Shown in pieces: positions 7,283 to 28,713 of a stretch of 64,000 nucleotides of DNA. The translations under genes were made by a program, and so were the position numbers. How positions within the stretch are numbered: the first letter of the stretch is position 1; every line of letters starts with the position of its first letter. The notes under the pieces are model-generated. The model worked only from the letters and a program-made list of their open reading frames with translations. It had not been told where the DNA came from and did no database searches. The stretch comes from Escherchia phage Stokescottia. The stretch lies in the sequence record OR896820.1, one strand, 5' to 3'.

Positions 7283-7402
7283 TATACAGGCCTGGGTATG
7301 AAAATACTCGGGCCTTTTCTATCAGAAAATTTTATTTGCCTAATGACCGATAATAAAGTAGAATATTCCTTAAATCCTGATAACTATAAAAAGGAAAGCC
7401 AA

Positions 7403-9733
7403 ATGAGCCATCGCATTGAAAAAGTAATTAAACGTGACGGTACTGTAGAAGACTTTGCTCCTGAAAAACTCAATGGTTGGGCGGAGTATGGTTGCAAAAC
7501 AGTTGATGTAAGTTGGTCAGCCATTACTATGGCTGCTCAAAAAACTCTGCCTAAAGGGGTTGTAGATTCCGACACTCTGATGGATGCATTAATTAAAGCT
7601 GCTGAAAGTCTTATTAAAGATAATCCAGCATATGATGTGCCAGCAAAGGAGTTACGTCTTGCGCAAATGCGTAAACGCCTTTATGATTCTTTCGAACCAC
7701 CTTCTCTACGCTTCTTCCATGACCATATGGTTAGCGTAGGTGCATGGGAAGACATGAGTGCATGGATTACCGATGAACAATTTGAAGCTCTGAATCAGGT
7801 TATCGACCATGATCGTGATCGTCTTTTTACTAGTGGTGGGCTGAAGCAGTTCTTTGATAAATATTCCCGTCGTAACATAGCCACTGGTGAAATTTATGAA
7901 ACTCCGCAGTTTGCCTACATGGGTATGGCAATGGCGATGCTATCTCAACCTAACTGGACAATTCTAGATGCAATCGACCTCTACAACGCAATGTCACTCC
8001 ACAAAATCAACGTTCCTACGCCGCCATTGGTTGGTCTGCGCTCTAGTGACCGTGGATTTGCTAGTTGCTGCCTCGTGGATTCCACTGACACGTTGGATTC
8101 AATTGACACCGCCGAGCACATCGTCTTCAAAATGGTCGCAGCCAGAGCGGGAATCGGGTATCATCTTGAAAGCCGATCAATTGCTGATCCGGTGCGAAAT
8201 GGGGCATTCCCGCATTCCGGAAAACTGCCATATTATCGACACATTGACCGCTCAGTAAAGGCCAATACTCAGCAAACTCGTGGTGGTTCTGCCACAGTGT
8301 CTTATCCATACTTCGACCCTGAAATCATTCAATTGATGCAGGTTAAGCAACAACGTGCTACAGATGAGAATAAAATCGATAAGATGGATTATTCCCTGAG
8401 CTTTAACAATCTTTTGTTAAAACGTTATCTTAAAAACGAAGATATTACGCTAATGTCATACTTCTATGCTCCAGAAGTTCATGAAGCGTTTTATAGTGAT
8501 GACGAGGCTAAATTTGAAGAAATCTACGTGGCAGCGGAGAAACGTGTGGCATCTCTTACAAAAATCGACCATGAAGGAAAAACAGTTCCTGCAGCTCCTA
8601 AAGTCTCCGCAAAAGAAATCCTAGATACTTGGCTACGTATTCGAATGGAAACAGGACGTATGTACGCTCATCACATCGGGGAATCTAACCGTCACGGTAA
8701 CTTCCTTGATCCGATCCGTATGACAAACCTTTGTGTTGAAATTACTCAGCCTACACGCCCGTTCCATCATATCACGGAACTGTATAAAACAAAAGAACAA
8801 CTCGATCAAATGAAGCCGGAGGATATTGGTGAAGTATCTCTGTGTAACTTAGGTGGTGTTGTACTTGGACGCATGGAATCTCTGGCCGAGTGGGAAAAAA
8901 CCTGCTACATCCTCCTGAAATTCGTTGATACAATTATTGAAATTCAGGATTATCCGTTCCCAACTATGGAATATACTGCTAAGAAACGTCGTAATGTTGG
9001 TATTGGCCTGATGAACGCAGCAGGTGCAATGGCAGCAGAAGGTCTGGCTTATGAAGGTATTGAAGCCCGTAACTGGATTCACCGTGAGGCTGAAAAACTG
9101 TCTTACTTCCTGCATAAAGCCTCTGTACGCCTAGCTAAAGAACAGGGTGCATGTGAGTGGTTTGATCGTACTAAACCATCTAAAGGAATTCTGGTAATCG
9201 ACACGTACAAGAAAACTGTTGATGAACTGGTATCCGTAGGTCTAGAAATGGATTGGGAGTCTCTGCGTGCAGATATTCTGAAATATGGTATGCGTAACTC
9301 TGTTCTGACTGCTCAGATGCCGGGAGAAAGTTCTTCTGTTCTGTTAGGTGTTACTAACTCTATTGAACCGCCTCGTAAGATTGTATCTATCAAAGGTAGT
9401 GCAGTAAATAAAGTAATTGCAATTGCTCCAGGTGCAACCGATTGGGAAACGTTAATGAGCTATAAACTGGCTTATGATGTAGATCGTATCGAGTGGATCA
9501 AGTGGGTAGCAACTATGCAGAAATTCTTCAGTCAGTCTATCAGTACGAATATGTACTATGACTACACCAAGTTTGAGAATGAAATCATTCCTGGCCCAGT
9601 AGTAGTTCGTGATTTCATGACTGCTGTTAAGTATGGGTGGAAAACTTGGTATTATGCTAACTTCAATACCGCAAATGGTGGAGGTGCTGGAGAAGAAGCA
9701 GCCGGTTGTGCATCCGGTGGTTGTACTATTTAA
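7403..9733 (+). CDS. nrdA: ribonucleoside-diphosphate reductase large subunit (class Ia)
   Basis: N-terminal ATP-cone (VIKRDG), catalytic core, C-terminal Cys pair (CASGGC); start at 7403 after RBS aaggaaag. Confidence 0.9.
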   Translation: MSHRIEKVIKRDGTVEDFAPEKLNGWAEYGCKTVDVSWSAITMAAQKTLPKGVVDSDTLMDALIKAAESLIKDNPAYDVPAKELRLAQMRKRLYDSFEPPSLRFFHDHMVSVGAWEDMSAWITDEQFEALNQVIDHDRDRLFTSGGLKQFFDKYSRRNIATGEIYETPQFAYMGMAMAMLSQPNWTILDAIDLYNAMSLHKINVPTPPLVGLRSSDRGFASCCLVDSTDTLDSIDTAEHIVFKMVAARAGIGYHLESRSIADPVRNGAFPHSGKLPYYRHIDRSVKANTQQTRGGSATVSYPYFDPEIIQLMQVKQQRATDENKIDKMDYSLSFNNLLLKRYLKNEDITLMSYFYAPEVHEAFYSDDEAKFEEIYVAAEKRVASLTKIDHEGKTVPAAPKVSAKEILDTWLRIRMETGRMYAHHIGESNRHGNFLDPIRMTNLCVEITQPTRPFHHITELYKTKEQLDQMKPEDIGEVSLCNLGGVVLGRMESLAEWEKTCYILLKFVDTIIEIQDYPFPTMEYTAKKRRNVGIGLMNAAGAMAAEGLAYEGIEARNWIHREAEKLSYFLHKASVRLAKEQGACEWFDRTKPSKGILVIDTYKKTVDELVSVGLEMDWESLRADILKYGMRNSVLTAQMPGESSSVLLGVTNSIEPPRKIVSIKGSAVNKVIAIAPGATDWETLMSYKLAYDVDRIEWIKWVATMQKFFSQSISTNMYYDYTKFENEIIPGPVVVRDFMTAVKYGWKTWYYANFNTANGGGAGEEAAGCASGGCTI

Positions 9734-9742
9734 TAAAAACAA

Positions 9743-9770
9743 GGAGATCTTCGGGTCTCCTTTTTCTTTG
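9743..9770 (+). terminator. rho-independent terminator after nrdA
   Basis: Hairpin GGAGATC-TTCG-GGTCTCC followed by T-run. Confidence 0.65.
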
Positions 9771-9779
9771 AAATTTTAC

Positions 9780-9809
9780 TTGCTAATCGCTACCAGATTT
9801 GCTATAATA
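9780..9809 (+). promoter_or_regulatory. sigma70-type early promoter
   Basis: TTGCTA 9780-9785, TATAAT 9804-9809. Confidence 0.55.
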
Positions 9810-9839
9810 TTCCTGAAATAGTGAGAAAGAGGAAAATCA

Positions 9840-10985
9840 ATGACTACTTTACTAAACCTGAATTGGGATCATACTAACGCTGACCTTTTCCTGGGAGATT
9901 CTCTCGGTATCGCAGATTATGTACGTGTAGCACATCCAGAACTAGAACGTCTGGCACTTCTGCAACGCTCTCAATTTTGGACTGAAACTGAAATCAGTCT
10001 GGAAGCAGATAAGAAACAATGGCCTAATCTCCCGCGTGAAATTCAGGAAATTACACTCCTGAACTTAGCATGGCAGACTCAAACTGATTCCTTTATCAGT
10101 CGTGCTCCTGAAGCAGCTATTATGCCGCTTGTAAGTCGTCCAGAATTGGAAGGTATGCTCAAGCAGTGGAGCTACTTCGAAGATCTGCATAGTCGTGCTT
10201 ATAGTAATATTATTCGTAATGTACTGACTGATCCAGCAGAATTTATTGATTCTGTAACCAAAAACCAGGAAGCATTCGCACGAATCGCTGATTCTGTTGA
10301 GCTATTTGATGAGCTATATCAGTTAGGTCAGTATTTCATCGCAGTACGTGATCATCGTGGTGACAATACATATCCAGAAACTGAGTTCCCTGAAGTTAAA
10401 CGTGAAACTCAGGCTAAACTATTAGACGCTTACTTTGCGATCTATGGTCTGGAAGCAATGCAGTTCTACGCATCCTTTGCATGTACCTTTGCATTAGCAG
10501 AGAACGATATTCTGCAAGGTATTGCTAAAAATCTGCAATTAATCGCTAAAGATGAAGCTCTGCACACTCAGATGTCCAAAGCAATCATCCAGATTATGTT
10601 CCAGCAGTTTGACAAAGATCTGGTGGATGAAGCAGTGGCTAAAGCACCAGCACAGCTCCTGAAAACTCTGAAAACTGAAATTGAATGGGGTCATTTCATC
10701 TTCAAAGGTCGTAGTCTGATTGGCTTGAATGCAGAACTTCTAGAAGAATATCTGTACTTTGTGGGGCGTAATGCATTTATGCACATCGGTGTAGAATGGC
10801 CTAGTCATTTACCAGTAATCACCAAAAACCCTATTCCGTGGATCATGAACTGGTTGGATACCACTTCTTTACAGCCTGCTCCACAAGAAATCCAGATTGG
10901 TGCAGCATATCGTGTAGGTCAGGTAACTGAGACCTCTACTGATACTCTGAAAGATCTGGGTAATGAATTTGGAGATTTCTTATGA
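9840..10985 (+). CDS. nrdB: ribonucleoside-diphosphate reductase small subunit
   Basis: 381 aa; R2-like acidic/His iron-ligand pattern; immediately downstream of nrdA. Confidence 0.85.
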   Translation: MTTLLNLNWDHTNADLFLGDSLGIADYVRVAHPELERLALLQRSQFWTETEISLEADKKQWPNLPREIQEITLLNLAWQTQTDSFISRAPEAAIMPLVSRPELEGMLKQWSYFEDLHSRAYSNIIRNVLTDPAEFIDSVTKNQEAFARIADSVELFDELYQLGQYFIAVRDHRGDNTYPETEFPEVKRETQAKLLDAYFAIYGLEAMQFYASFACTFALAENDILQGIAKNLQLIAKDEALHTQMSKAIIQIMFQQFDKDLVDEAVAKAPAQLLKTLKTEIEWGHFIFKGRSLIGLNAELLEEYLYFVGRNAFMHIGVEWPSHLPVITKNPIPWIMNWLDTTSLQPAPQEIQIGAAYRVGQVTETSTDTLKDLGNEFGDFL

Positions 10986-11515
10986 TTACAGCAATGTATG
11001 CAGTTGGGCCGAATGGGGAGTTCGGCCTCCGCGGTAAACTTCCATGGGGTTCCTTCAAAGAAGAACTAGATGCTTTCTATTCTCAATTGGACGTGTTGAA
11101 TCCAGATAACATCATCATTGGTGCTGGTACTTATTTAGCTCTCCCATACGCCGTTAGGGAACGTATGATTGGAGCTTCCGACCTATTTATTCGTGCTGAT
11201 CGTCCACTGCCAGACGATATTACACATGATATTTACACCCCAATTTCTAAGATCGGGGATACATTGCCTACGTTCTTAAAAGATCAACAGACAGTGGTTT
11301 TAGGTGGTGCAACATTACTGTACGAAATGTATATTCATGGTCATATTGAAAGTGCTTTCGTATCCACAATCTTTAGTAATCAAAAACTAGAGGCAGATGT
11401 ACATCTGGATAATACGATTCTAGATTACAACTATGAATCTACTCGTTTAGTTTACGCAACCGGCGCAAACAGTGATAACAGCCTGCGATTTGTACAGGAA
11501 TTGGTTACTTATTAA
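10982..11515 (+). CDS. dihydrofolate reductase-like protein
   Basis: N-terminal M.AV...G.G..G.LPW resembles DHFR; sits between nrdB and the thyA homolog; start overlaps nrdB stop (ATGA). Confidence 0.6.
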
Positions 11516-12369
11516 TGGATCAGTATATCGAAGTTGGAAAACGTATTCTATCAGAGGGTCAGTGGGTAACGAATCCTAGAACAGGGGTTCGTTGCCTCAC
11601 TATTATTGATGCAGACTTTACTTTTAACGTAGGTGCAGGTGAATTTCCACTTATTACTACTCGTAAGGCGTTTGCAAAACAAGCAATAATGGAAATGATT
11701 GGGTATCTACGTGGGTATGATTCAGCAGCACAATTCCGCGCTATTGGTGTTAACACATGGAATGCTAATGCAAATGAAAACTTAGCTTGGCTAGACAATC
11801 CATACCGTAAAGGTGAGGATGATATGGGACGAGTCTATGGTGTTCAAGGACGTCAGTGGACTAATTCCGATGGTCTTATGTTTGACCAACTAGCCAAGAT
11901 TTATCATAATCTGAAAAATGGCATTGATGATCGTGGGGAAATTCTAACATTCTGGAATCCGGGAGAGTTCTCAAAGGGTTGCTTACGTCCATGTATGCAC
12001 ACTCATCAGTTCTCTATTTTGGGAGATACATTATATCTGAACTCTTTCCAGAGATCTAATGACTTCCTGTTAGGCCAAGTATTTAACATGGTTCAGTGCT
12101 ATACGCTTCTAGCATTAATGGCACAGATTACAGGCCTTAAACCAGGAATTGCACGCCAGAAGATTATCAATCTTCATATCTATGAGGATCAGTATAACGT
12201 TCTTATGGAGCATAAGCAATTCGATCGTGAACCTTTTGCACCTCCTACTCTAGAAATCAATCCAAATATCCGAACTCTGGAGGATGTATTGACCTGGGTA
12301 AATAAGGATGATTTTACTGTTCGTGGTTACAAACACCATCCTGCTATTGCATACCCCTTTACGGTATAA
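11515..12369 (+). CDS. thymidylate synthase homolog (ThyA fold, atypical active-site neighbourhood)
   Basis: RTG near N-terminus, Cys in [15 protein letters not shown] and FNMV blocks align with ThyA; His after the catalytic Cys is replaced and the GGDxH block is not evident. Confidence 0.7.
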
Positions 12370-12372
12370 TAT

Positions 12373-12726
12373 ATGTTTACAATATTATTATTTGTTATAT
12401 TCTTCCTGAAACATTTTATGGCTGATTATCCCCTCCAAACTCCATACATGTTAAGGAAGACTCACAAAATAGGATGGAAACTTCCATTACTAACCCATTC
12501 TCTAGTACATGCTGGACTAACCTTTATAATTCTTACTATGTTCACATCACTAGGAATGGCTATAACTTTAGCTATAATGGAATTAATCCTACACTTTATC
12601 ATAGATTACTGGAAAGCACAACGCTGTAAATACGATATAAGTGATTCCAAGTTTTGGATAGCTTTAGGATTTGATCAGTTACTCCATTACTTAACCTATG
12701 CTCTCATAATCTTGATTATAATTTAA
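12373..12726 (+). CDS. small integral membrane protein
   Basis: Three or four hydrophobic segments. Confidence 0.5.
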   Translation: MFTILLFVIFFLKHFMADYPLQTPYMLRKTHKIGWKLPLLTHSLVHAGLTFIILTMFTSLGMAITLAIMELILHFIIDYWKAQRCKYDISDSKFWIALGFDQLLHYLTYALIILIII

Positions 12727-12733
12727 CTCAAAT

Positions 12734-12756
12734 AGCCCTTCGGGGCTATTATATTT
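12734..12756 (+). terminator. rho-independent terminator
   Basis: AGCCC-TTCG-GGGCT hairpin followed by T-rich tract. Confidence 0.55.
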
Positions 12757-12765
12757 AAATTTCAT

Positions 12766-12794
12766 TTGCTTATTTAGTGAAATTTAAATATAAT
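12766..12794 (+). promoter_or_regulatory. sigma70-type early promoter
   Basis: TTGCTT 12766-12771, TATAAT 12789-12794. Confidence 0.55.
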
Positions 12795-12819
12795 ATATTT
12801 TATAAATTGGAGGTATATA

Positions 12820-13101
12820 ATGATTTCAGCCAAAGAAGCTCAAGAACTCGCAGGATTAACAGAAGTACCCGCATTTCTAAAGTTTATAGAAGAAAAGATT
12901 GTAGAAGCTGCTAAGTCTGGAAATACAGAAGTAATTATTCGAGATAATCCTTACGCTAGGTGGCTATATAATCCTAGAGAAATGCCAGGAGCAGCTAAAT
13001 CAGTACTAAAAACCTTATCGGATAAGGGGTATCATCTCTCACAATACTACCGAGAAGCCGCCTTTGTAGACATGGGTCTTAAAATTAGTTGGGAGGTATA
13101 A
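12820..13101 (+). CDS. hypothetical protein
   Basis: ORF track; RBS ggaggt upstream. Confidence 0.5.
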   Translation: MISAKEAQELAGLTEVPAFLKFIEEKIVEAAKSGNTEVIIRDNPYARWLYNPREMPGAAKSVLKTLSDKGYHLSQYYREAAFVDMGLKISWEV

Positions 13102-13653: not shown

Positions 13654-13938
13654 ATGCGGATTTATAACTCAAATTCATTAGGATTTAAACCATTGAGAAA
13701 ACGTGCACAATCACCTCGTCAAATAAGAAAGGCTAATATTGGTGAGCCAGAGACACGACTTCCACCTCCTCCAGAACAACGTTTAGTTTATCTGGACGAA
13801 GAATTAGCGGAATGCGAAAGAAAAGCTCAAGAAGAGATTGAGCGTAAGAAAATGTGTACTGCTCCAGCCTACTCCAAAGGGGCTTATCAGTATATCTATA
13901 CAGCCGAGGAGGCTAAAGATGCGGGGCGTAAAAAATGA
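13654..13938 (+). CDS. hypothetical protein
   Basis: ORF track; RBS gaggag. Confidence 0.5.
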   Translation: MRIYNSNSLGFKPLRKRAQSPRQIRKANIGEPETRLPPPPEQRLVYLDEELAECERKAQEEIERKKMCTAPAYSKGAYQYIYTAEEAKDAGRKK

Positions 13939-14384
13939 AGATTACTGAATTTAAAGGTACTTATAGTTTCTTATCAAACTTTTATTTATCACCAATTACT
14001 TTCGAATATCTAAATGAAATATGGCATGCTGATACTGTAGAACATGCTTTTCAGGCTATGAAATCCGACCAAAAAGATGATGTAGCTCATGTACTGCGCT
14101 CCCTAAATGCAGGAGTTGCCAAACGTAGAGGACGTAAATTAACTCTACGCTCTGACTGGGATAAGGTAAAAGATGATGTAATGCTAGAGCTTTTACGGTT
14201 AAAGTTTGCAATCCCTGATTTGAGAGACAAACTGTTAGCAACAAAAAATGCAACTTTGATCGAAGGAAATACCTGGGGAGATACATATTGGGGTGTTTGC
14301 CGAGGCATTGGGGATAATACTCTAGGTGTTCTTTTGATGCAGGTAAGGTCTGAAATTAAAAGAAGCTTACAGTTAATAAATTAA
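13935..14384 (+). CDS. NADAR (YbiA-like) domain protein
   Basis: FLSNFY and EHAFQA.K motifs typical of the NADAR/DUF1768 family. Confidence 0.7.
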   Translation: MKITEFKGTYSFLSNFYLSPITFEYLNEIWHADTVEHAFQAMKSDQKDDVAHVLRSLNAGVAKRRGRKLTLRSDWDKVKDDVMLELLRLKFAIPDLRDKLLATKNATLIEGNTWGDTYWGVCRGIGDNTLGVLLMQVRSEIKRSLQLIN

Positions 14385-19924: not shown

Positions 19925-19999
19925 CGGGGTGTAGTCTAAGGGAGAGGCAGGAGTCTTCTAAATTCCTTTATGCAGGTTCGAATCCTGTCACCTCGGCCA
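19925..19999 (+). tRNA. tRNA-Arg (anticodon TCT)
   Basis: Manual cloverleaf: acceptor CGGGGTG/CACCTCG, anticodon loop CTTCTAA, T-loop TTCGAAT, discriminator G, CCA encoded. Confidence 0.75.
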
Positions 20000-20033
20000 A
20001 TTTTATTAACTGTAACTAAAACAAAGGAAATAT

Positions 20034-20981
20034 ATGTTTGCTACTAAAAACACTAAAGAACTGACTTATGAGCAAAAATTAATGCGTAATATCAAACGTT
20101 GGGGTATTGGGGCTGCAGTTGGTTTGGTAGGTTTAGTTCTGGCTCTTAACTCTTACACTGTTGTTCAAGACGGTACTGTTAAAACCCAGACTTTCCTGGG
20201 TAAAGTTGACCCTAGCCCAGTATTACCCGGCTTTCATATTGTAAATCCTTTTGCTTCTTTCGATACTTTTAGTACTAAAGATATTGCTCTAAAATTAGAT
20301 AAACTTCAGGTTCCTAGTCAGGATAAGTTTAAATCCACTGTTGACCTGACTGTTATGTTGCAGTTTGATGGTTCTAAGGCACCGATTAACCGTATTAATG
20401 CAGGTACTCAGGATCAAGCATTAGACAAATATGTAACTGAAAAATTACTGTCTACTATTCGTGAGTTTGGTAAGTCTGTACCTAAAGCACAAGATTTATT
20501 TGATGCTAAAATTCAGGCTCAATTGCAAACTGCAATTCAACAGGAAGTTGAAGAGTATGCACGCCCATATGGTTACACAGTTAAGCAGGTGTTTCTTCAG
20601 GATATTACTTTGCCACCGGTAATCATGGAACAGGTACAGAATACCAAAGTTCGTGAAGAGCAAGTTAATGCTGCGAAAGCTGAGCTTGCTCGTGTTGAAC
20701 AGGAAGCACAGCAAAAAGTTAAACAAGCAGAAGCAGATCGTGAAGCTCGCAATAACCAAGCTATTGCTAATGAACGTGACGCAGATGCTAAACTGTACGC
20801 AGCTAAGAAAGAAGCTGAAGCTAACGCCGCACTGCAACGTACCATTACTCCTGAGATGATTCGTTGGAAACAACTGGAAGTTGAGATGATTCGTGCTCAG
20901 AAATATCAAGGTGGTGTACCTCAGACTGTAGTTGGCACTGGCTATGATGGTCAAATGATCATGGATATGCGTAACAAGTAA
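20034..20981 (+). CDS. SPFH/band-7 (prohibitin/HflC-like) membrane protein
   Basis: N-terminal TM helix, SPFH-like core, long Ala/Glu/Gln-rich coiled coil. Confidence 0.65.
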   Translation: MFATKNTKELTYEQKLMRNIKRWGIGAAVGLVGLVLALNSYTVVQDGTVKTQTFLGKVDPSPVLPGFHIVNPFASFDTFSTKDIALKLDKLQVPSQDKFKSTVDLTVMLQFDGSKAPINRINAGTQDQALDKYVTEKLLSTIREFGKSVPKAQDLFDAKIQAQLQTAIQQEVEEYARPYGYTVKQVFLQDITLPPVIMEQVQNTKVREEQVNAAKAELARVEQEAQQKVKQAEADREARNNQAIANERDADAKLYAAKKEAEANAALQRTITPEMIRWKQLEVEMIRAQKYQGGVPQTVVGTGYDGQMIMDMRNK

Positions 20982-21004
20982 TAGTTACACGTAATCTTCG
21001 AACT

Positions 21005-21040
21005 AAGCCCGCGTTTTCTCCGAGAGCGCGGGCTTTTCTG
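21005..21040. terminator. bidirectional terminator hairpin 1
   Basis: AAGCCCGCG...CGCGGGCTT followed by TTTTCTG; between convergent genes. Confidence 0.6.
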
Positions 21041-21057
21041 TATTTAAGGAAAAAGAA

Positions 21058-21095
21058 AAAGCCCCTTACCTTTCGGCAGGGGCTTTTGTTTTTTG
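21058..21095. terminator. bidirectional terminator hairpin 2
   Basis: A-run, GCCCCT...AGGGGC, then T-run. Confidence 0.65.
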
Positions 21096-21301
21096 GTTTA
21101 GAACCACACTCTCGGTGTACAGCAACCACCTATATGGGAGGCCAACCTTGACTGAAAATCTACTCTAGGGGGCAGGATAAGAGTAGGCTTAAAGGCAAAC
21201 GGATTGAACGCCGGTATTTGCGTAAACATTGCTGGAGAGCAACAACGTGCTACAGGCATTGGGCAGCACGAAACAGATTTTCTGCAACACATAATTCCTC
21301 C

Positions 21302-21718
21302 TTAGGAGTTATTACCACCATTTTGAGCTTTTGCAACTTGGCTTTGGCAGAAGCTATTAAACTTACCCATAAGTGATACAAGCTGCTTCCCGTCCTCTGT
21401 CTTTGCGAAGTCTTCGAAAAGGGCTAGTACTGCCTGTCCTTCCGCAGAAACCTGCGGTTGTTGGGTTTGTTGCTGAACTTGCTGCTGCGGCATCTGTTGC
21501 TGCATTTGTTGAGGCATTTGCGACTGCCCGCTCATTTGCTGCATCATTTGCATAGGACTCACACTTCCAGGGTTTTGCTGGAGTTGTTGCTGCATCTGTT
21601 GCGCTTCTGCTAAACGCTGTTGCAACTGTTGTAAGTAGGGGTTATCCAGACCCGGCATGGGCTGCTGGGAGCCCATACTTTGATTAAGTCCGTTATTTAC
21701 AAAACCATATTTACTCAT
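21302..21718 (-). CDS. Gln/Met-rich low-complexity protein
   Basis: 138 aa with QQLQQ/MQQQ repeats; clean start with RBS. Confidence 0.55.
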   Translation of the reverse strand: MSKYGFVNNGLNQSMGSQQPMPGLDNPYLQQLQQRLAEAQQMQQQLQQNPGSVSPMQMMQQMSGQSQMPQQMQQQMPQQQVQQQTQQPQVSAEGQAVLALFEDFAKTEDGKQLVSLMGKFNSFCQSQVAKAQNGGNNS

Positions 21719-21739
21719 AATGGGCTCCTCCCCTTAATA

Positions 21740-22732
21740 TTAAGCCGGCAGTTTAGCCTGCAGACCAGCCAGAGTCTGAGTGATAGCACCAAGACTTAAA
21801 GCGATTTGATTAATTACCTGACCGTTAGCACCGCTACCCGCAGCGATTGCTTCACGTAGGCGACATGCATCTAACTCATCCTGGATACGCGCAGTAGTTA
21901 CACCAGCGATCGCAGTCTGAAGCTCACAGCAGCACTCAGCAAGCTGGCGTTCGATAGAGTTCTGGTTAGCACACATCTGAGCCTGAACAGCGGCAAACTG
22001 GTTATTAGTTTGTAAAGTCTGCTGGAAAGCGATCTGTGCAGAATCAAACTTATCTTGTGCACGAGCTATCTGGTTAGCTGCGAAAGATTGATCAATCTGG
22101 CGAGAAAGATCGAACTGACCCTGAATAACGTTGCGAGTTTCCTGGCAGATCTGATTAGACAGATTAGCACCTGTACCATAGATCGTAGTTAGTACAGACT
22201 GAGTATCACGGCTCTGGTTTTGGGATGTCTGGCTAAAACCATTGTTAACTGCGCTTAAAACAGCTCCAGTACCCTGGTTAGCTTCTGTACGAGTAGTGTT
22301 AATAGCTGCTAGAATACTAGCGGTATCTTGGTTCTGAAGTACTGCATCAACTGCGGTACCTTCACCAACTATACCACGTCCACCGAATCCACCGAAACCA
22401 CCGAATCCGCCTGTTAATAGAGCACCGATTAGGATAGCTCCGAATAGTCCCATACCTTCACCACCGAAAGCGCCTGCGTTTGCTGGGTAACCACCCATTA
22501 GGCCAGGGAAGCCACTAGTGAATACGTTTACTGGTTCTTGCATTTTACGTTTTCCATATTTATGACAATACTCATCATCGTCATCTTCTTCATCATCTTC
22601 ATCGTGTTCACGATGTTTCTCTTCGTAGGCTCTGACCTTCTCCCACTTTTTCTTATCTGATTCCTCGTGACGGTGCAGTTCTGCTGCAACGCTAGCGACG
22701 GTCTCAGGACTCTTAGCTACTTCTTCTGTCAT
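21740..22732 (-). CDS. Gly/Gln/Ala-rich low-complexity protein with acidic N-terminus and Cys cluster
   Basis: Start at 22732 (MTEEV) after RBS AGGAGGTG; DEDDEEDDDDE stretch, GGFGGFGGFGG repeats, CCCELQ. Confidence 0.55.
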   Translation of the reverse strand: MTEEVAKSPETVASVAAELHRHEESDKKKWEKVRAYEEKHREHDEDDEEDDDDEYCHKYGKRKMQEPVNVFTSGFPGLMGGYPANAGAFGGEGMGLFGAILIGALLTGGFGGFGGFGGRGIVGEGTAVDAVLQNQDTASILAAINTTRTEANQGTGAVLSAVNNGFSQTSQNQSRDTQSVLTTIYGTGANLSNQICQETRNVIQGQFDLSRQIDQSFAANQIARAQDKFDSAQIAFQQTLQTNNQFAAVQAQMCANQNSIERQLAECCCELQTAIAGVTTARIQDELDACRLREAIAAGSGANGQVINQIALSLGAITQTLAGLQAKLPA

Positions 22733-22939
22733 TTTTTGACACCTCCTAGTATATAGAAAATGTGTGTCTCTTTGATCACTCATCCATAACATATACTTTA
22801 CACTACCCCAGCGAAAATGTCAAGGGGTCTTTAAAAATTGCCCCTGGATTTTTAGTGGGGTCACAAATTTTGGTCCTCACCACTTATCTGCTACCCTTAA
22901 GTGCCCTATGATTTTCCTCTAAAAAGTTAAAAAATTTGA

Positions 22940-22968
22940 TTGCTTGAATGCTAAATTCTCTGTATAAT
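22940..22968 (+). promoter_or_regulatory. sigma70-type early promoter
   Basis: TTGCTT 22940-22945, TATAAT 22963-22968. Confidence 0.6.
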
Positions 22969-22995
22969 ATATCTATAAATTTGAGAGAGGAACCA

Positions 22996-23517
22996 AATAT
23001 GAATGTTGATGAGCTAACACAGCACCTCTTATCTAGAGGATTTGATACAGATAAATATCATTGCTGGTTAAGTCCGGAAGGGTGGCTAACAGTCCCGTTG
23101 TATGATTTCTCTGGAATGTTGAGGGGCTATCAAACTTATAATCCTTCTGCTCCAAAAGGTCATGGTAAGTGCCCCTTTGAAGCTAAATACTTTACTTATT
23201 CTACTACACAGTGTGTATGGGGACTAGAAACTCTCAATGGGGATGAAAAAGTAGTATTGATTGCTGAATCTGTATTTAAGGCAGTTGCATTACATAATGC
23301 TGGTTATCCAGCCCTAGCAATGTTAGGTTCTTCTCCAGGAAAAGCGTTATTAAAGCAACTGAAATTACTACCCTTTAAATTGGTAGCTGTCGGGGATAAT
23401 GATCCTGCGGGTGAAAAATTTGCTAGAAAATTAAACGGCTTTGTTTCTCCCGTAGATGTGGATGAGATGTCTACCGAAAACTTGAAAAATTTTCTTGCTA
23501 TGAAGCTAAATTTCTAA
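22996..23517 (+). CDS. hypothetical protein (possible Toprim-like fold)
   Basis: Start at 22996 after promoter/RBS; VVLIAES....VGDNDPAG resembles Toprim E...DxD. Confidence 0.45.
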   Translation, partial: NMNVDELTQHLLSRGFDTDKYHCWLSPEGWLTVPLYDFSGMLRGYQTYNPSAPKGHGKCPFEAKYFTYSTTQCVWGLETLNGDEKVVLIAESVFKAVALHNAGYPALAMLGSSPGKALLKQLKLLPFKLVAVGDNDPAGEKFARKLNGFVSPVDVDEMSTENLKNFLAMKLNF

Positions 23518-23523
23518 TATAAT
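23495..23523 (+). promoter_or_regulatory. sigma70-type promoter inside the 3' end of the upstream CDS, driving tRNAs
   Basis: TTGCTA 23495-23500, TATAAT 23518-23523. Confidence 0.5.
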
Positions 23524-23538
23524 ATATCTTATAAATTC

Positions 23539-23627
23539 GGAAGAATAGCATAACGGTATTGCAGCAGATTGCTAATCTGTCGGTTTGAAATATAGCCTTG
23601 TGGGTTCGATTCCCACTTCTTCCGCCA
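23539..23627 (+). tRNA. tRNA-Ser (anticodon GCT), long variable arm
   Basis: Acceptor GGAAGAA/TTCTTCC, loop TTGCTAA, long variable arm, discriminator G, CCA. Confidence 0.75.
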
Positions 23628-23632
23628 AATTT

Positions 23633-23710
23633 GGTTCTCAAGCTCATATGGTATGAGCACCCGGCTCATAACCGGAAGGTACGTAGGTTCGAATCCTCGG
23701 GGAGCCACCA
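23633..23710 (+). tRNA. tRNA with CAT anticodon (Met or Ile-lysidine type)
   Basis: Acceptor GGTTCTC/GGGAGCC, loop CTCATAA; T-stem only 3 clean pairs; discriminator A, CCA. Confidence 0.55.
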
Positions 23711-23728
23711 ATTAAATAGAGGTCACAA

Positions 23729-23917
23729 ATGGATCTATATATAGTTTATGTTGTGTTTATTCAAGATAGAGAATACCCGGATGAATATAAAAAAGGATAT
23801 AGGTTAGCCAGAGCTACATCTGAAGCCCAAGCTATGGATAAAGTGGCGGATTATATGATTACGGTAGAAAACGTACACTATATCGACTACCTTGAAGCCT
23901 CAAAAGTAATTGACTAA
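23729..23917 (+). CDS. hypothetical protein
   Basis: ORF track. Confidence 0.45.
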   Translation: MDLYIVYVVFIQDREYPDEYKKGYRLARATSEAQAMDKVADYMITVENVHYIDYLEASKVID

Positions 23918-23926
23918 GGAGACTAT

Positions 23927-24112
23927 ATGTCTAAGTTTCAAGAACTCAAGCAAGAGCTAGAAGAATGTGCCTGCCCTGAGTGTAGGGGAATTGGTGAAAG
24001 TTCTGATGCAGAAGCAGGAGATACTTTTTGCAATATCTGGGTTTGCCCAAATTGCAAGGGTACAGGTATTAATCCTAACTGCGGTATTTCCCTAGATATT
24101 GAACGAGGATAA
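23927..24112 (+). CDS. Cys-rich small protein (possible zinc ribbon)
   Basis: CPEC...CPNC pattern. Confidence 0.45.
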   Translation: MSKFQELKQELEECACPECRGIGESSDAEAGDTFCNIWVCPNCKGTGINPNCGISLDIERG

Positions 24113-24213
24113 TACCTGTGAAACTAAAAGATTATTATATTGGTTGGTTTGTAGGACTAGTAGTAGGATTTTCACTAGGCTATAATATGTATCAACTAAT
24201 AAACTGATTACAC

Positions 24214-24290
24214 GGGGGTGTAATCGAATTGGCATAGGTACTGGACTTAAAATTCAGGTTTTGTGGGTTCGAATCCCACCACCACTACCA
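24214..24290 (+). tRNA. tRNA-Leu (anticodon TAA), type-I-like scaffold
   Basis: Acceptor GGGGGTG/CACCACT (one mismatch), 3-bp D-stem with 11-nt loop GAATTGGCATA, loop CTTAAAA, discriminator A, CCA; paralog of 28714..28790 with covarying pair 12:24. Confidence 0.6.
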
Positions 24291-24465
24291 AATTAAGGAA
24301 ATAAGATGTATAGACATCCACCTCCGCCAACACGTCGTTCTAGAGAAGTTATTCTCATGGAATTGACTAAAAACTTCAAGGCAACCCTTGAAGATAGAGA
24401 TCTAGGCACGGATGAAGACATTGATTTTATTTGTAGACTATTAAAGATGAAACTGGAGAAACAAC

Positions 24466-24672
24466 ATGGCTAATCCTGAAATTACCGCACAACGTTTCAT
24501 GCTTAAAGGTATGATTGCTGAGGCGGGTATAACTCAAGAGGTTGCAGATTTTCATAAGCAATTTCTTGATATTATAACTCTAGCTAAAGAGACTGGAGAA
24601 AAAGAGCACGGAGCAGCAATTATGGCTATATCTCTTATTAGTCTAGACTTGGCTGAAGAATCTGGAGTTTAG
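24466..24672 (+). CDS. hypothetical protein
   Basis: ORF track. Confidence 0.45.
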   Translation: MANPEITAQRFMLKGMIAEAGITQEVADFHKQFLDIITLAKETGEKEHGAAIMAISLISLDLAEESGV

Positions 24673-24702
24673 CTCCTCCAAACAGAATTTTTAAAAATGT
24701 AC

Positions 24703-24732
24703 TTGCCTTTTGCTTTAAATTTCTGGTATAAT
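24703..24732 (+). promoter_or_regulatory. sigma70-type early promoter
   Basis: TTGCCT 24703-24708, TATAAT 24727-24732. Confidence 0.5.
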
Positions 24733-24762
24733 AATTATATAAATTGATGAAGGAGTTAACTA

Positions 24763-25038
24763 ATGCAAAATCGTGTTATAGCTGCTGGTATTGAAAGTGC
24801 AATCTGTAAATCCTGGGAAGGCTGGGAAGGTGAGATTGAATGGCTTTATTTCTACGATGTAGAACTTCTGCCGGAAATTAAAGCTAAATGTATTGAAGCT
24901 GGCATGGCTCCAGATGCAAAAGCTGATATTGATATTTCAATGTCTGAACTTAAAGGTCGTGTAATCACTGTTAGTGATGAGGGCGAAGAAGTTTTTGAAC
25001 TTCCGTTCTCCTTAACTGTCACTCCTAAGTTCGACTAA
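24763..25038 (+). CDS. hypothetical protein
   Basis: ORF track. Confidence 0.5.
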   Translation: MQNRVIAAGIESAICKSWEGWEGEIEWLYFYDVELLPEIKAKCIEAGMAPDAKADIDISMSELKGRVITVSDEGEEVFELPFSLTVTPKFD

Positions 25039-25074
25039 CTAATACAGCATTGGGCAAGTTCTTTAAAATTTGAC

Positions 25075-25103
25075 TTGCCCAATACTATAAAACTTGATAT
25101 AAT
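25075..25103 (+). promoter_or_regulatory. sigma70-type promoter upstream of tRNA block
   Basis: TTGCCC 25075-25080, TATAAT 25098-25103. Confidence 0.5.
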
Positions 25104-25169
25104 ATTTATCTAATTTGGAAACATATTTAAAAGTGTTTAAATGAGAATTTTTTGAATACTTCTAAATAT

Positions 25170-25257
25170 GGGGAAATATTCTGTAAGTGGTAGCAGAGCT
25201 GACTGTAAATCAGTTGTCATTGCGACTCGGGTGGTTCGACTCCATCTTTCCCCACCA
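25170..25257 (+). tRNA. tRNA-Tyr (anticodon GTA), long variable arm
   Basis: Acceptor GGGGAAA/TTTCCCC, loop CTGTAAA, discriminator A, CCA. Confidence 0.75.
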
Positions 25258-25264
25258 ATTTAAT

Positions 25265-25339
25265 GCACCTATCGTCTAGCGGTTAGGACACCACTCTTTC
25301 ACAGTGGGAACACGAGTTCGATCCTCGTTGGGTGTGCCA
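25265..25339 (+). tRNA. tRNA-Glu (anticodon TTC)
   Basis: Acceptor GCACCTA/TGGGTGT, loop CTTTCAC, discriminator G, CCA. Confidence 0.75.
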
Positions 25340-25348
25340 ATTAATAAT

Positions 25349-25419
25349 TGGGGTACGCATAGGTTGCAAATGGGCCTCCAAAACCCATGAAAAGGTTTCG
25401 AATACCTTTACCCCTGCCA
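25349..25419 (+). tRNA. tRNA-Trp-like (anticodon CCA), compact D-arm
   Basis: 71 nt; T-arm AAGGT-TTCGAAT-ACCTT, CCA-containing anticodon loop (7 or 9 nt depending on register), 1:72 mismatch, discriminator G, CCA. Confidence 0.45.
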
Positions 25420-25425
25420 AAATTT

Positions 25426-25500
25426 GCACCTTTAGCTGAGATGGATTAGCGCTTGCCTGAAGAGCTTGAGAGGTTCGTTCGATACGAACAGGGTGCACCA
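25426..25500 (+). tRNA. tRNA-Phe-like (anticodon GAA)
   Basis: Acceptor GCACCTT/AGGGTGC, loop CTGAAGA, two U-U mismatches in anticodon stem, discriminator A, CCA. Confidence 0.5.
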
Positions 25501-25782
25501 AATTGAAGGAGCTGCTGATGCATCCTGAAAACTTCTTTATTTACTGCGCGGATAAGTCGCTGAAACGTAGAATTAACAAAGTCTATCATTATCGTGCTAG
25601 TCAACAGCCTTATGTATATGCTTTTGACGGTGATCACATTCCCCTAGAACAATTATCTTGTGATTACATGATATTGAAGAACTTTGACGAGACGAAGATC
25701 TCAAGCGTTCATAATCGACAGAATCCATTAACGTGGAAATATAAGAAGAAAAAGAAAGGCATCAAATTCTTAAAAAATGTAG

Positions 25783-25811
25783 TTGCTTAGTTTCCAAAAG
25801 TTCTGTATAAT
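25783..25811 (+). promoter_or_regulatory. sigma70-type early promoter
   Basis: TTGCTT 25783-25788, TATAAT 25806-25811. Confidence 0.6.
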
Positions 25812-25840
25812 AATTACATAAATTGAACTGGAGAAGCAAC

Positions 25841-26065
25841 ATGACAGAACAAGAATTGAATGAACGTAAGCTGGTAATGCTTCGCTTACTAAATATTTTC
25901 TCTGGTATGGACGGTGGAATTGACTTTGTTCTTCTACGTTCTTTCGTAGAAGAAGCCGAAGGCGAATCTATCACTAAAATCCTTAAACACATGGGATTAC
26001 TTTTAGATGCTGCTAATGTGGCTACTGAATATAAACTAGAAGATCTACCGGAGCGTGTTAAATGA
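25841..26065 (+). CDS. hypothetical protein
   Basis: ATG at 25841 after promoter; ORF track 25823..26065. Confidence 0.5.
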   Translation: MTEQELNERKLVMLRLLNIFSGMDGGIDFVLLRSFVEEAEGESITKILKHMGLLLDAANVATEYKLEDLPERVK

Positions 26066-26253
26066 AACGATTAGTTAGATTTAAGTGTTGTGGTTCTGAA
26101 CATACTTTCACACATCTTCGTGAATTTAAAATGTGTGATTGTGGTAAATCAGGCTATGACTCAGGAGATGGGTTCTACACCCGTACTCTAGGGAACTTCA
26201 ATGATCTAGAATTTGAAGATCTCGAAAAACAAGATAAATCGACCGTTGGCTGA
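26062..26253 (+). CDS. Cys-rich small protein
   Basis: CCGSEH...CDCG; 3' end overlaps tRNA-Cys by 14 nt. Confidence 0.45.
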   Translation: MKRLVRFKCCGSEHTFTHLREFKMCDCGKSGYDSGDGFYTRTLGNFNDLEFEDLEKQDKSTVG

Positions 26254-26315
26254 ATGGCTTAGGCGAAGGATTGCAAATCCTTTTTATGTGAGTTCAAATC
26301 TCATGCGGTCGTCCA
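26240..26315 (+). tRNA. tRNA-Cys (anticodon GCA)
   Basis: Acceptor CGACCGT/GCGGTCG, loop TTGCAAA, discriminator T, CCA. Confidence 0.75.
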
Positions 26316-26838: not shown

Positions 26839-26847
26839 ATGAATTAT

Positions 26848-26924: not shown

Positions 26925-26950
26925 AACTAAACTAGCACGAGAAAAATGCT

Positions 26951-28708: not shown

Positions 28709-28713
28709 AAATA

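What the first reader, a model, noticed from the sequence alone, without database searches (positions are those of the whole stretch)
11515..12369. Thymidylate-synthase homolog with altered residues around the catalytic cysteine
The protein aligns to ThyA, but the catalytic Cys sits in RPCMHTHQF rather than the PCH(A/T)xxQF block I recall for canonical enzymes, the RSCD block reads RSND, and I cannot find a GGDxH block near the expected position. The specificity Asn (FNMV) is retained. ThyA paralogs in some phages act as dUMP/dCMP hydroxymethylases for DNA modification; the adjacent DHFR-like gene argues for an ordinary synthase, so this is tentative and depends on my recollection of the consensus.
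Basis: partly seen in the sequence, partly recalled or inferred. Interest (0 to 1): 0.45.

Follow-up and report, generated by a model that had tools for sequence, protein, structure and literature searches.

The report
Ordinary thymidylate synthase, Vibrio-type variant
The gene is a normal thymidylate synthase of a T5-like phage; its odd-looking active-site motifs are the hallmarks of a known bacterial subfamily that has been shown to make dTMP, so it is ordinary and not a DNA-modification enzyme.

Summary
ORF 11515-12369 (+) encodes a 284-aa ThyA homolog that reads [14 protein letters not shown] and IINLHIY, and it keeps the specificity Asn (FNMV). The hydroxymethylase suggestion is not supported.

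The window is a T5-like Salmonella/Escherichia phage. The protein passes NCBIfam's curated thymidylate-synthase equivalog NF002498 over its full length. It is 63-70% identical end to end to the chromosomal 283-aa ThyA of Vibrio, Photobacterium, Acinetobacter, Shewanella, Pseudoalteromonas and Pasteurellaceae, usually in the lgt-thyA slot.

In 200 family members, Met147, Gly127', Asn83 and Asn205 (E. coli numbering) are essentially fixed, and all core catalytic residues are kept. This is the published "VAAP clade" ThyA. The recombinant V. parahaemolyticus enzyme, which has Gly141', Met161 and Arg50 at the same residue numbers, forms dihydrofolate from dUMP and mTHF.

Only Cys168->Asn is specific to the phage clade, and that position also varies in canonical enzymes (human Gly, L. 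casei Ala, T5 Val).

Two sister phages, Bas26 and Bas27, carry a 92%-identical ThyA with the same motifs. Published HPLC-MS/MS found no non-canonical bases in Bas26 DNA. dN/dS is 0.06.

The one modestly interesting point is that T5 itself carries a different, E. coli-like thyA at the same locus, so the gene has been exchanged as a clean cassette.

The parts
11515..12369 (+). thy: 284-aa folate-dependent thymidylate synthase of the VAAP (Vibrio/Alteromonas/Aeromonas/Pasteurella-type) subfamily
   Evidence: ORF. Pfam PF00303 E 1.7e-68. NCBIfam equivalog NF002498 scores 459.8 bits against a cutoff of 427, matching residues 1-284 to profile 1-283 of 283. 63-70% identity to chromosomal bacterial ThyA. 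AF2 model pLDDT 86.8, and all 50 top PDB fold hits are TS.
11986..12012 (+). RPCMHTHQF: catalytic Cys160 (E. coli Cys146) followed by Met161 in place of His147
   Evidence: Read from the sequence. Met at this position in 199 of 200 subfamily members, bacterial ones included. Met161 is noted in the active V. parahaemolyticus TS.
11926..11940 (+). DDRGE: Arg140' kept (E. coli Arg126'), Gly141' replaces Arg127'
   Evidence: Gly in 193 of 200 subfamily members. Gly141' is the defining feature of the VAAP clade in PMC6005164.
12049..12063 (+). QRSND: Arg180, Ser181 and Asp183 kept; Asn182 in place of E. coli Cys168. This is the only substitution specific to the phage clade.
   Evidence: Phage clade has N in 38 of 42; bacterial loci have C in 77 of 80; T5 has V. 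Human TS has G and L. casei TS has A. B. thailandensis TS 3v8h has N.
12082..12093 (+). FNMV: Asn191 (E. coli Asn177), the uracil-specificity residue
   Evidence: Asn in all 200 subfamily members; T4 dCMP hydroxymethylase has Asp here.
12163..12183 (+). IINLHIY: His221 and Tyr223 (E. coli His207, Tyr209) kept; Asn219 replaces Asp205. This is the subfamily's version of the GGDxHxY block.
   Evidence: Asn at position 205 in all 200 subfamily members; His and Tyr are invariant.
10982..11515 (+). frd: divergent phage dihydrofolate reductase. Its stop codon overlaps the thy start (TAATG) and its start overlaps the nrdB stop (ATGA).
   Evidence: phrog_316 E 6e-34; T4 DHFR 1juv E 8e-4; coordinates and sequence.
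7298..10985 (+). nrdA (7298-9733) and nrdB (9840-10985): class Ia ribonucleotide reductase, upstream in the same gene string
   Evidence: ORFs; annotation of the 97%-identical phage SCF.
11525..12723 (+). Segment not homologous to phage T5 (thy plus a DUF3307 membrane gene). In T5 it is replaced by an E. coli-like 279-aa thy.
   Evidence: blastn window vs T5: 90-93% identity up to 11525, resuming at 12723. The T5 ThyA is 31% identical to the window protein and 48% identical to E. coli ThyA.

Best explanation
The gene encodes a functional, folate-dependent thymidylate synthase (EC 2.1.1.45). It belongs to the VAAP-type ThyA subfamily.

Mechanism. Cys160 attacks C6 of dUMP. The methylene of 5,10-methylene-THF is transferred to C5 and reduced by hydride from the cofactor, giving dTMP and dihydrofolate. 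The DHFR encoded immediately upstream, with an overlapping stop/start codon, recycles the dihydrofolate. Together with nrdAB, nrdD, dUTPase and dNMP kinase, this gives the T5-like phage its own supply of ordinary dTTP.

The unusual residues. Met for His147, Gly for Arg127', Asn for Trp83 and Asp205, and Arg for Lys48 are inherited subfamily traits, not a change of chemistry.

What is shown: family membership, residue conservation, purifying selection, TS activity of a bacterial subfamily member, and canonical DNA in a sister phage.

What is inferred: that this particular protein is catalytically active as a TS.
For: 1. Curated membership. NCBIfam thymidylate-synthase equivalog NF002498 scores 459.8 bits against a cutoff of 427, end to end. 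Pfam PF00303 E 1.7e-68.

2. Similarity to housekeeping ThyA. 63-70% full-length identity to the chromosomal ThyA of Acinetobacter, Pseudoalteromonas, Shewanella, Thalassotalea, Vibrio, Photobacterium, Gallibacterium and Proteus myxofaciens. In 54 of 80 such loci, lgt lies directly upstream on the same strand, as in E. coli lgt-thyA.

3. Residues. In 200 subfamily members the core residues are invariant and present here: R21, E58, W80, Y94, R126', L143, C146, Q165, R166, S167, D169, G173, N177, H207, Y209. M147, G127', N83 and N205 are fixed across the subfamily.

4. Biochemistry of a subfamily member. PMC6005164 reports recombinant V. parahaemolyticus TS with Cys160, Met161, Gly141', Arg50, Asn191, His221 and Tyr223, which are the same residue numbers as in the window protein. 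It is a dimer with kcat 0.3 s-1, Km dUMP 27 uM and Km mTHF 96 uM, measured as dihydrofolate formation at 340 nm.

5. Genetics. V. cholerae thyA loss-of-function mutants are selected by trimethoprim on thymine medium.

6. Phage DNA. HPLC-MS/MS found no non-canonical bases in T5, BF23 or the Epseptimavirus Bas26. The Bas26 and Bas27 ThyA proteins are 92% identical to the window protein, with identical [18 protein letters not shown] and I(I/V)NLHIY motifs.

7. Selection. dN/dS is 0.06 against Bas26 and Bas27. The gene is present in 284 phage records.

8. Fold. AF2 model pLDDT 86.8, pTM 0.89. The top 50 PDB fold hits are all thymidylate synthases, with TM up to 0.89.

9. Context. The frd stop and thy start overlap, which fits a reaction that oxidises folate.
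Against: - No enzyme assay or thyA complementation exists for this protein or, as far as I found, for any phage member of the subfamily.
- The classic biochemical evidence for T5-induced thymidylate synthetase cannot be transferred, because T5 itself carries a different, E. coli-like ThyA.
- The characterised bacterial member is 1-2 orders of magnitude less efficient than other TSs.
- The phage clade adds Cys168->Asn next to the folate-binding Asp. Both characterised hydroxymethylases, T4 gp42 and SPO1 gp29, also read RSND.
- I did not retrieve the V. parahaemolyticus sequence itself. Its equivalence rests on the matching residue numbering in the paper's Table 2 and on other Vibrio ThyAs being 62-64% identical to the window protein.
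- The LC-MS paper names Bas26 'TrudiGerster', whereas GenBank locus tags make Bas26 GreteKellenberger. Both phages carry the same ThyA type, so the conclusion is unaffected.
Confidence: 0.93

Rival explanations
1. dUMP hydroxymethylase. The ThyA homolog adds the methylene to dUMP but hydrates it instead of reducing it, making 5-hmdUMP for modified phage DNA, as in SPO1, phiW-14 and ViI-like phages.
For: Asn177 is retained, so dUMP would be the substrate. The phage clade reads RSND, as do SPO1 gp29 and T4 gp42. His147 and Arg127' are replaced.
Against: - The same His147 and Arg127' replacements occur in housekeeping bacterial ThyAs with measured DHF-forming activity.
- RSND also occurs in B. 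thailandensis TS, and position 168 is G, A or V in canonical TSs.
- Identity to SPO1 gp29 is only 32% over 131 aa, against 69% over the full length to Acinetobacter ThyA.
- gp29 belongs to phrog_5131 (456 bits). The window protein scores 74 bits there and 309 bits in phrog_160.
- It lacks gp29's ~130-aa C-terminal extension and keeps the TS C-terminal tail.
- No dTTPase/dTMPase, dCMP deaminase, 5-HMUDK or aGPT-Pplase is annotated anywhere in the 97%-identical phage SCF. Those are the companions the hmU pathway needs.
- No non-canonical bases were found in Bas26 DNA.
- A hydroxymethylase releases THF and would not need the translationally coupled DHFR.
Confidence: 0.02
2. dCMP hydroxymethylase or dCMP methylase acting on cytosine nucleotides, as T4 gp42 does.
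For: It belongs to the same superfamily. T4 gp42 also falls in phrog_160 and also reads RSND.
Against: The specificity residue is Asn191, not the Asp of gp42. BLASTP against gp42 is not significant (E 3.5). No dCTPase or glucosyltransferase is annotated in the close relative. Cytosines are unmodified in T5, BF23 and Bas26 DNA, and these DNAs are cut by ordinary restriction enzymes.
Confidence: 0.005
3. A catalytically weakened or non-catalytic ThyA relic, kept for another role such as a scaffold in a dNTP-synthesising complex or RNA binding, with dTMP supplied by the host ThyA.
For: The one characterised subfamily member is 10-100 fold less efficient than E. coli TS. The hosts, Salmonella and E. 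coli, have their own efficient ThyA.
Against: All catalytic and substrate-binding core residues are invariant across phage and bacterial members. dN/dS is 0.06. The same type is the only lgt-linked thyA in many bacteria. The alternative allele at this locus in T5 is a canonical TS, which implies that the slot is selected for TS function.
Confidence: 0.03

Closest known systems
VAAP-clade thymidylate synthase (V. parahaemolyticus VpTS; Lopez-Zavala et al. 2018, PeerJ 6:e5023, PMC6005164); NCBIfam NF002498
   Same: The length is the same (283/284 aa). The residue numbering of Cys160, Met161, Arg140', Gly141', Arg180, Asn191, His221, Tyr223, Trp82, Arg22 and Arg50 is identical. Identity to bacterial members is 63-70%. 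It scores above the curated equivalog cutoff.
   Different: It is encoded by a T5-like phage of Salmonella/E. coli, whose hosts have the E. coli-type ThyA. The phage clade has Asn182 where bacteria have Cys (RSND vs RSCD) and Gln165 where most bacteria have Thr, His or Asn. The paper did not consider phage members.
E. coli ThyA and phage T5 ThyA (T5.092), the canonical 264/279-aa type
   Same: The fold and all core catalytic residues are the same. In T5 the gene sits in the identical genomic slot between frd and rnh.
   Different: Identity is only 31-33%. The canonical type has His147, Arg127', Trp83 (E. coli), Asp205 and the GGDTH block, and it lacks the 12-residue insertion after Asn87.
Burkholderia thailandensis thymidylate synthase (PDB 3v8h; NCBIfam NF010393)
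   Same: It is the best PDB match by sequence (E 1.1e-48) and by fold (E 1.8e-26). It shares the WxANANEN...NPYRxGxDD insertion and RSND.
   Different: It is 327 aa with an extra insertion. It keeps PACH, SRR and GDAHIY, that is His147, Arg127' and Asp205. The window protein scores below that family's cutoff (188.9 vs 576 bits).
Phage pyrimidine hydroxymethylases: T4 gp42 (dCMP) and SPO1 gp29 (dUMP)
   Same: They belong to the same superfamily (PF00303), with a catalytic Cys, the Arg-Ser-x-Asp block read as RSND, and the His-x-Tyr block.
   Different: gp42 has Asp instead of Asn177 and no significant BLASTP similarity to the window protein. gp29 is 383 aa, in phrog_5131, and 32% identical over 131 aa. 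Both lack the TS C-terminal tail that the window protein retains.

Membership tests
Folate-dependent thymidylate synthase ThyA (Pfam PF00303; EC 2.1.1.45) | Profile match above the curated threshold over the full length | tested here: met
   PF00303 scores 231.1 bits against a cutoff of 24.3, residues 3-283. TIGR03284 scores 135.7 against 108.35.
Folate-dependent thymidylate synthase ThyA (Pfam PF00303; EC 2.1.1.45) | Catalytic Cys146 plus the core residues R21, E58, W80, Y94, R126', R166, S167, D169, N177, H207 and Y209 (E. coli numbering) | tested here: met
   All are present in the window protein and invariant in 200 subfamily members.
Folate-dependent thymidylate synthase ThyA (Pfam PF00303; EC 2.1.1.45) | Residues once called invariant: His147, Arg127', Trp83, Asp205, Lys48 | tested here: not met
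   They are Met, Gly, Asn, Asn and Arg here. The same replacements are fixed in the whole VAAP subfamily, including the enzymatically active VpTS. These residues therefore do not define TS function.
Folate-dependent thymidylate synthase ThyA (Pfam PF00303; EC 2.1.1.45) | TS fold with the C-terminal tail that closes over the cofactor | tested here: met
   AF2 model pLDDT 86.8. The top 50 Foldseek PDB hits are all TS, with TM up to 0.89. The C-terminus [14 protein letters not shown] aligns to E. coli GYDPHPGIKAPVAI.
Folate-dependent thymidylate synthase ThyA (Pfam PF00303; EC 2.1.1.45) | Converts dUMP and mTHF to dTMP and dihydrofolate; rescues thyA mutants | not testable with these tools
   Activity is shown only for a bacterial subfamily member, by DHF formation at 340 nm (PMC6005164). 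No assay exists for the phage protein.
VAAP-clade ThyA (NCBIfam NF002498; PMC6005164) | Score above the NF002498 equivalog cutoff; length about 283 aa | tested here: met
   459.8 bits against a cutoff of 427, residues 1-284 matched to profile 1-283 of 283.
VAAP-clade ThyA (NCBIfam NF002498; PMC6005164) | Gly141' in place of Arg127', Met161 in place of His147, Arg50 in place of Lys48 | tested here: met
   G141, M161 and R50 are present in the window protein. They are described as clade features.
dCMP hydroxymethylase (T4 gp42 type) | Asp at the Asn177-equivalent position (cytosine specificity); significant similarity to gp42 | tested here: not met
   The window protein has Asn191 where gp42 has Asp. 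BLASTP E is 3.5.
dUMP hydroxymethylase (SPO1 gp29 type, phrog_5131) | Best match to the gp29 family; long C-terminal extension in place of the TS tail | tested here: not met
   phrog_5131 scores 74 bits against 309 bits for phrog_160, while gp29 itself scores 456 bits in phrog_5131. There is no C-terminal extension.
dUMP hydroxymethylase (SPO1 gp29 type, phrog_5131) | Companion functions (dTTPase/dTMPase, dCMP deaminase, or 5-HMUDK/aGPT-Pplase) and 5-hmdU or derivatives in virion DNA | tested here: not met
   None is annotated in the whole genome of the 97%-identical phage SCF. The pathway requirements are taken from PMC8989533. No non-canonical bases were found in Bas26 DNA, and its ThyA is 92% identical to the window protein. 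Annotation-based absence is weaker than a profile search of every ORF.

The most novel reading that the evidence does not exclude
The phage-clade-specific Cys168->Asn lies next to the folate-binding Asp. RSND is also the reading in both characterised hydroxymethylases. Combined with the VAAP-type active site, this substitution might give the phage enzyme a property the bacterial enzymes lack. Possibilities include some hydration (hydroxymethylase) side reaction, altered folate or antifolate handling, or escape from a host control that acts on the E. coli-type ThyA. Such a property could explain why two unrelated thyA alleles are kept at the same locus in T5-like phages. The evidence does not exclude altered kinetics. 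It does make a DNA-modifying role very unlikely.
Probability: 0.04. Interest if true: 0.5.

Novelty: already known. Interest (0 to 1): 0.1.

Why it matters
It matters mainly as a caution. Motif checks against the E. coli, human or L. casei ThyA consensus will flag a whole, widespread subfamily of genuine thymidylate synthases as aberrant. This subfamily is the VAAP type, and here it also turns up in Moraxellaceae, some Morganellaceae, Campylobacterota and hundreds of T5-like phages.

For phage biology, the only mildly new point is that T5-like phages carry either of two roughly 31%-identical thyA alleles in exactly the same slot (284 vs 142 GenBank records). Biochemical results from T5 itself therefore cannot be assumed for Epseptimavirus and many Tequintavirus phages.

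Nothing here suggests a new DNA modification.

Tried and rejected
1. PHROGs could not separate synthase from dCMP hydroxymethylase. T4 gp42 also lands in phrog_160. Only SPO1 gp29 separates, into phrog_5131.

2. I planned to lean on the classic T5-induced thymidylate synthetase literature. I dropped this when the alignment showed that T5's own ThyA is a different, E. coli-like protein, 31% identical to the window protein.

3. Pfam found no DHFR domain in the upstream gene at E <= 0.01. Its identity rests on PHROG 316 and a weak hit to T4 DHFR.

4. Two guessed BASEL accessions, MZ501073 and MZ501071, were unrelated phages. MZ501108 was the right one.

5. The H. influenzae thyA paper shows thymidine auxotrophy, but I could not verify that its ThyA belongs to this subfamily. 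I use it only as background. Gallibacterium, another Pasteurellaceae genus, is in the subfamily.

6. I did not retrieve the V. parahaemolyticus sequence (WP_100088861.1). No tool fetches by that accession.

7. The structure model gives the fold only.

8. One fetch of an annotated region failed on a 50,001-base range.
Full report
**What is there.** ORF 11515..12369 on the + strand starts with ATG and encodes 284 aa.
- RPCMHTHQF: residues 158-166, with the catalytic Cys160 at nt 11992-11994.
- QRSND: residues 179-183.
- FNMV: residues 190-193.
- IINLHIY: residues 217-223, standing where E. coli has GGDTHLY.

The protein matches Pfam Thymidylat_synt at E 1.7e-68. It aligns end to end with E. coli TS crystal-structure sequences at E ~1e-34.

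**Genomic setting.** The window is a T5-like phage (Demerecviridae). It is 97% identical over 5 kb to Salmonella phage SCF, Escherichia phage YJin-2024a, Salmonella phage L6jm (classified as Tequintavirus) and many others.
- The gene string is nrdA, nrdB, frd, thy, a DUF3307 membrane protein, a 93-aa ORF, RNase H, and then a NADAR-domain protein.
- The nrdB stop overlaps the frd start (ATGA), and the frd stop overlaps the thy start (TAATG).
- The upstream gene is a divergent DHFR. It hits phrog_316 at E 6e-34 and T4 DHFR 1juv at E 8e-4, but has no Pfam hit at E <= 0.01.

**Which ThyA it is.**
- NCBIfam places the protein in the curated thymidylate-synthase equivalog NF002498, at 459.8 bits against a cutoff of 427, with residues 1-284 matched to profile positions 1-283 of 283.
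- A search of 5.8 billion proteins finds phage orthologs at 70-98% identity. It then finds chromosomal 283-aa ThyAs of Pseudoalteromonas, Acinetobacter, Thalassotalea and Shewanella at 68-70% identity over 100% of the length.
- A genome scan adds Vibrio (including V. metoecus and V. mimicus), Photobacterium, Psychrobacter, Idiomarina, Colwellia, Gallibacterium, Proteus myxofaciens, Moellerella, Pelistega and Campylobacterota at 62-70% identity.
- In 54 of these 80 bacterial loci, lgt ends just upstream of thyA on the same strand. This is the E. coli lgt-thyA arrangement, so this is the housekeeping thyA of those organisms.

**Residue audit.** I aligned E. coli ThyA, the window protein, T5 ThyA, T4 gp42 and 200 subfamily members: 42 proteins of 284 aa (which include the named phage proteins), 78 other database hits and 80 bacterial loci. 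I then read out the E. coli key positions.
- Invariant and present here: R21, E58, W80, Y94, R126', L143, C146, Q165, R166, S167, D169, G173, N177, H207, Y209.
- Fixed across the whole subfamily, bacteria included: Met at 147 (199 of 200), Gly at 127' (193 of 200), Asn at 83 (200 of 200), Asn at 205 (200 of 200), Arg at 48 (195 of 200), His at 150 and Phe at 262.

So is the unnoticed loss of the fourth phosphate-binding arginine.

The third anomaly, RSND, is typical of the phage clade. Position 168 is N in 38 of 42 of the 284-aa proteins, against C in 77 of 80 bacterial loci. But position 168 is not conserved in canonical enzymes either. T5 has Val, human TS reads RSGD, L. casei TS reads RSAD, and B. 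thailandensis TS (3v8h) reads RSND.

**Experimental anchor.** A literature search for His147 found PMC6005164 (PeerJ 2018), which describes exactly this group as the VAAP clade (Vibrionales, Alteromonadales, Aeromonadales, Pasteurellales).
- Its Table 2 lists Cys160, Asn191, His221, Tyr223, Trp82, Arg22, Arg140', Gly141', Arg180 and Arg50 for the V. parahaemolyticus enzyme. The discussion adds Met161 in place of E. coli His147.
- These are the same residue numbers as in the window protein.
- The recombinant enzyme is a dimer. It turns over dUMP and mTHF with kcat 0.3 s-1, Km dUMP 27 uM and Km mTHF 96 uM. The assay follows dihydrofolate formation at 340 nm.
- Dihydrofolate is the signature product of reductive methylation. 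A hydroxymethylase would release tetrahydrofolate instead; this last point is established enzymology and my own knowledge.
- The authors note that Arg179' of L. casei, the equivalent of Gly141', tolerates mutation, and that His147 changes lower efficiency without abolishing function.
- In V. cholerae, loss-of-function thyA mutants are selected by trimethoprim on thymine-supplemented medium.

**Test against the hydroxymethylase idea.** I fetched T4 gp42 (dCMP hydroxymethylase) and SPO1 gp29 (dUMP hydroxymethylase).

| Comparison with the window protein | Result |
|---|---|
| Acinetobacter ThyA | 69% identity, full length |
| V. metoecus ThyA | 63% identity, full length |
| E. coli ThyA | 33% identity |
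| T5 ThyA | 31% identity |
| SPO1 gp29 | 32% over 131 aa, E 2.6e-12 |
| T4 gp42 | not significant, E 3.5 |

- gp42 has Asp where the window protein has Asn191.
- Both hydroxymethylases lack the TS C-terminal tail, which the window protein keeps ([14 protein letters not shown]).
- gp29 carries a C-terminal extension of about 130 aa that is absent here.
- gp29 belongs to phrog_5131 (456 bits). The window protein scores 74 bits there and 309 bits in phrog_160. PHROGs cannot separate gp42, which also falls in phrog_160.
- The hmU pathway needs a phage dTTPase/dTMPase and dCMP deaminase, and hypermodification needs 5-HMUDK and aGPT-Pplase (PMC8989533). None is annotated anywhere in the 97%-identical phage SCF. 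Its nucleotide genes are nrdAB, nrdD, frd, thy, dUTPase, dNMP kinase and thioredoxin.

**Phage DNA composition.** PMC10644984 digested T5, BF23 and Bas26 (an Epseptimavirus) DNA to nucleosides and analysed them by HPLC-MS/MS, with T4 as a positive control. No non-canonical bases were detected, and the DNAs are cut by ordinary restriction enzymes.
- I fetched both candidate identities of that phage, because the paper calls Bas26 'TrudiGerster' whereas GenBank locus tags give bas26 = GreteKellenberger and bas27 = TrudiGerster.
- Both encode a 284-aa ThyA that is 92% identical to the window protein, with identical [22 protein letters not shown] and I(I/V)NLHIY blocks.

**Selection and fold.**
- dN/dS between the window gene and the Bas26 and Bas27 genes is 0.06, at dS 0.75-0.87.
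- An AlphaFold2 model built on 30 family sequences has pLDDT 86.8 and pTM 0.89.
- Its top 50 Foldseek matches in the PDB are all thymidylate synthases, led by B. thailandensis 3v8h and E. coli TS, with TM up to 0.89.

**An unexpected side result.** Phage T5 itself does not carry this protein.
- T5.092 is a 279-aa, E. coli-like ThyA (PPCHYGFQ, QRSVD, GGDTHIY, GRR). It is 48% identical to E. coli ThyA and 31% identical to the window protein.
- Nucleotide homology between the window and T5 is 90-93% through nrdA, nrdB and frd. It stops 10 nt into thy, at window 11525.
- It resumes at 12723-12802, which corresponds to the 3' end of T5 thy plus an annotated promoter region, and again at 13098 (rnh).
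- thy plus the DUF3307 gene is therefore a cleanly bounded cassette that replaces T5's thy.
- In the phage collection, 284 records carry the window-type allele and 142 carry the T5-type allele.
- More distant Demerecviridae-like phages of Klebsiella (74%), Proteus (59%) and Vibrio (59%) carry the window type.
- Homing-endonuclease genes come and go nearby. T5 hegH lies between nrdA and nrdB and is absent here; Bas27 has one there. They may drive such exchanges, but that is inference only.
- One consequence is that the classic T5 enzymology cannot be used as evidence for this protein.

**Verdict.** The gene is an ordinary thymidylate synthase of a known, biochemically validated variant subfamily. 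It is translationally coupled to DHFR and supplies canonical dTMP. I put this at about 0.93. The remainder is shared among a weakened or moonlighting enzyme (0.03), a dUMP hydroxymethylase (0.02) and a dCMP-directed enzyme (0.005). It is already annotated as thymidylate synthase in hundreds of near-identical phage genomes. Interest is low.

Noticed in passing
window 11525-12723; T5 locus L004:17022-17861: T5-like phages carry one of two unrelated thyA alleles in the same frd-thy-rnh slot. One is VAAP-type, 284 aa, found in 284 phage records. The other is E. coli-like, 279 aa, found in T5 and 141 other records. The two are about 31% identical. Homology breaks sharply, 10 nt into thy and again at the end of the DUF3307 gene.
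   Followed up: yes
window 12373-12726 (+): A 117-aa DUF3307 membrane protein (Pfam E 5e-12, phrog_2470) lies directly after thy. Its GC content is 31.6%, against about 40% for its neighbours. It lies inside the swapped segment. It is absent from T5 and Bas26 and present in Bas27. Its function is unknown.
   Followed up: partly
window 10982-11515 (+): The DHFR is highly divergent. It has no Pfam hit at E <= 0.01. Its only PDB sequence hit is T4 DHFR 1juv (E 8e-4), its weak NCBIfam hits are to trimethoprim-resistant Dfr families, and it matches phrog_316 at E 6e-34. Its start overlaps the nrdB stop and its stop overlaps the thy start.
   Followed up: partly
window 12820-13101 (+): A 93-aa ORF (phrog_5321, unknown function) sits between a conserved promoter-like stretch (12723-12802) and rnh. 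It has no counterpart in T5.
   Followed up: no
window 13935-14384 (+): A 149-aa NADAR-domain protein (Pfam PF08719, E 6e-22) lies downstream of RNase H. It is annotated only as hypothetical in the relatives.
   Followed up: no
window 19925-32068 (+): A cluster of 21 tRNA genes, all on the + strand. This is the typical T5-like tRNA region.
   Followed up: no
window 9810/9815 vs L004:20085-19561: T5 has the HNH homing-endonuclease gene hegH between nrdA and nrdB. The window lacks it, and Bas27 has a homing endonuclease at that spot.
   Followed up: no
loci L085 (MZ501072) and L090 (MZ501108): There is a naming discrepancy in the literature. PMC10644984 calls Bas26 'vB_EcoS_TrudiGerster'. GenBank locus tags and PMC11619597 give Bas26 = GreteKellenberger and Bas27 = TrudiGerster. 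Both have the same ThyA type.
   Followed up: yes
loci L005-L084 (e.g. L005 Pelistega, L016 Proteus myxofaciens, L055 Sulfurimonadaceae, L031): The 'VAAP' ThyA type extends well beyond the four named orders. It occurs in Moraxellaceae, a betaproteobacterium (Pelistega), Morganellaceae and Campylobacterota MAGs. A contig binned as 'Candidatus Bathyarchaeota' carries it with bacterial lgt upstream, which probably reflects bin contamination.
   Followed up: partly
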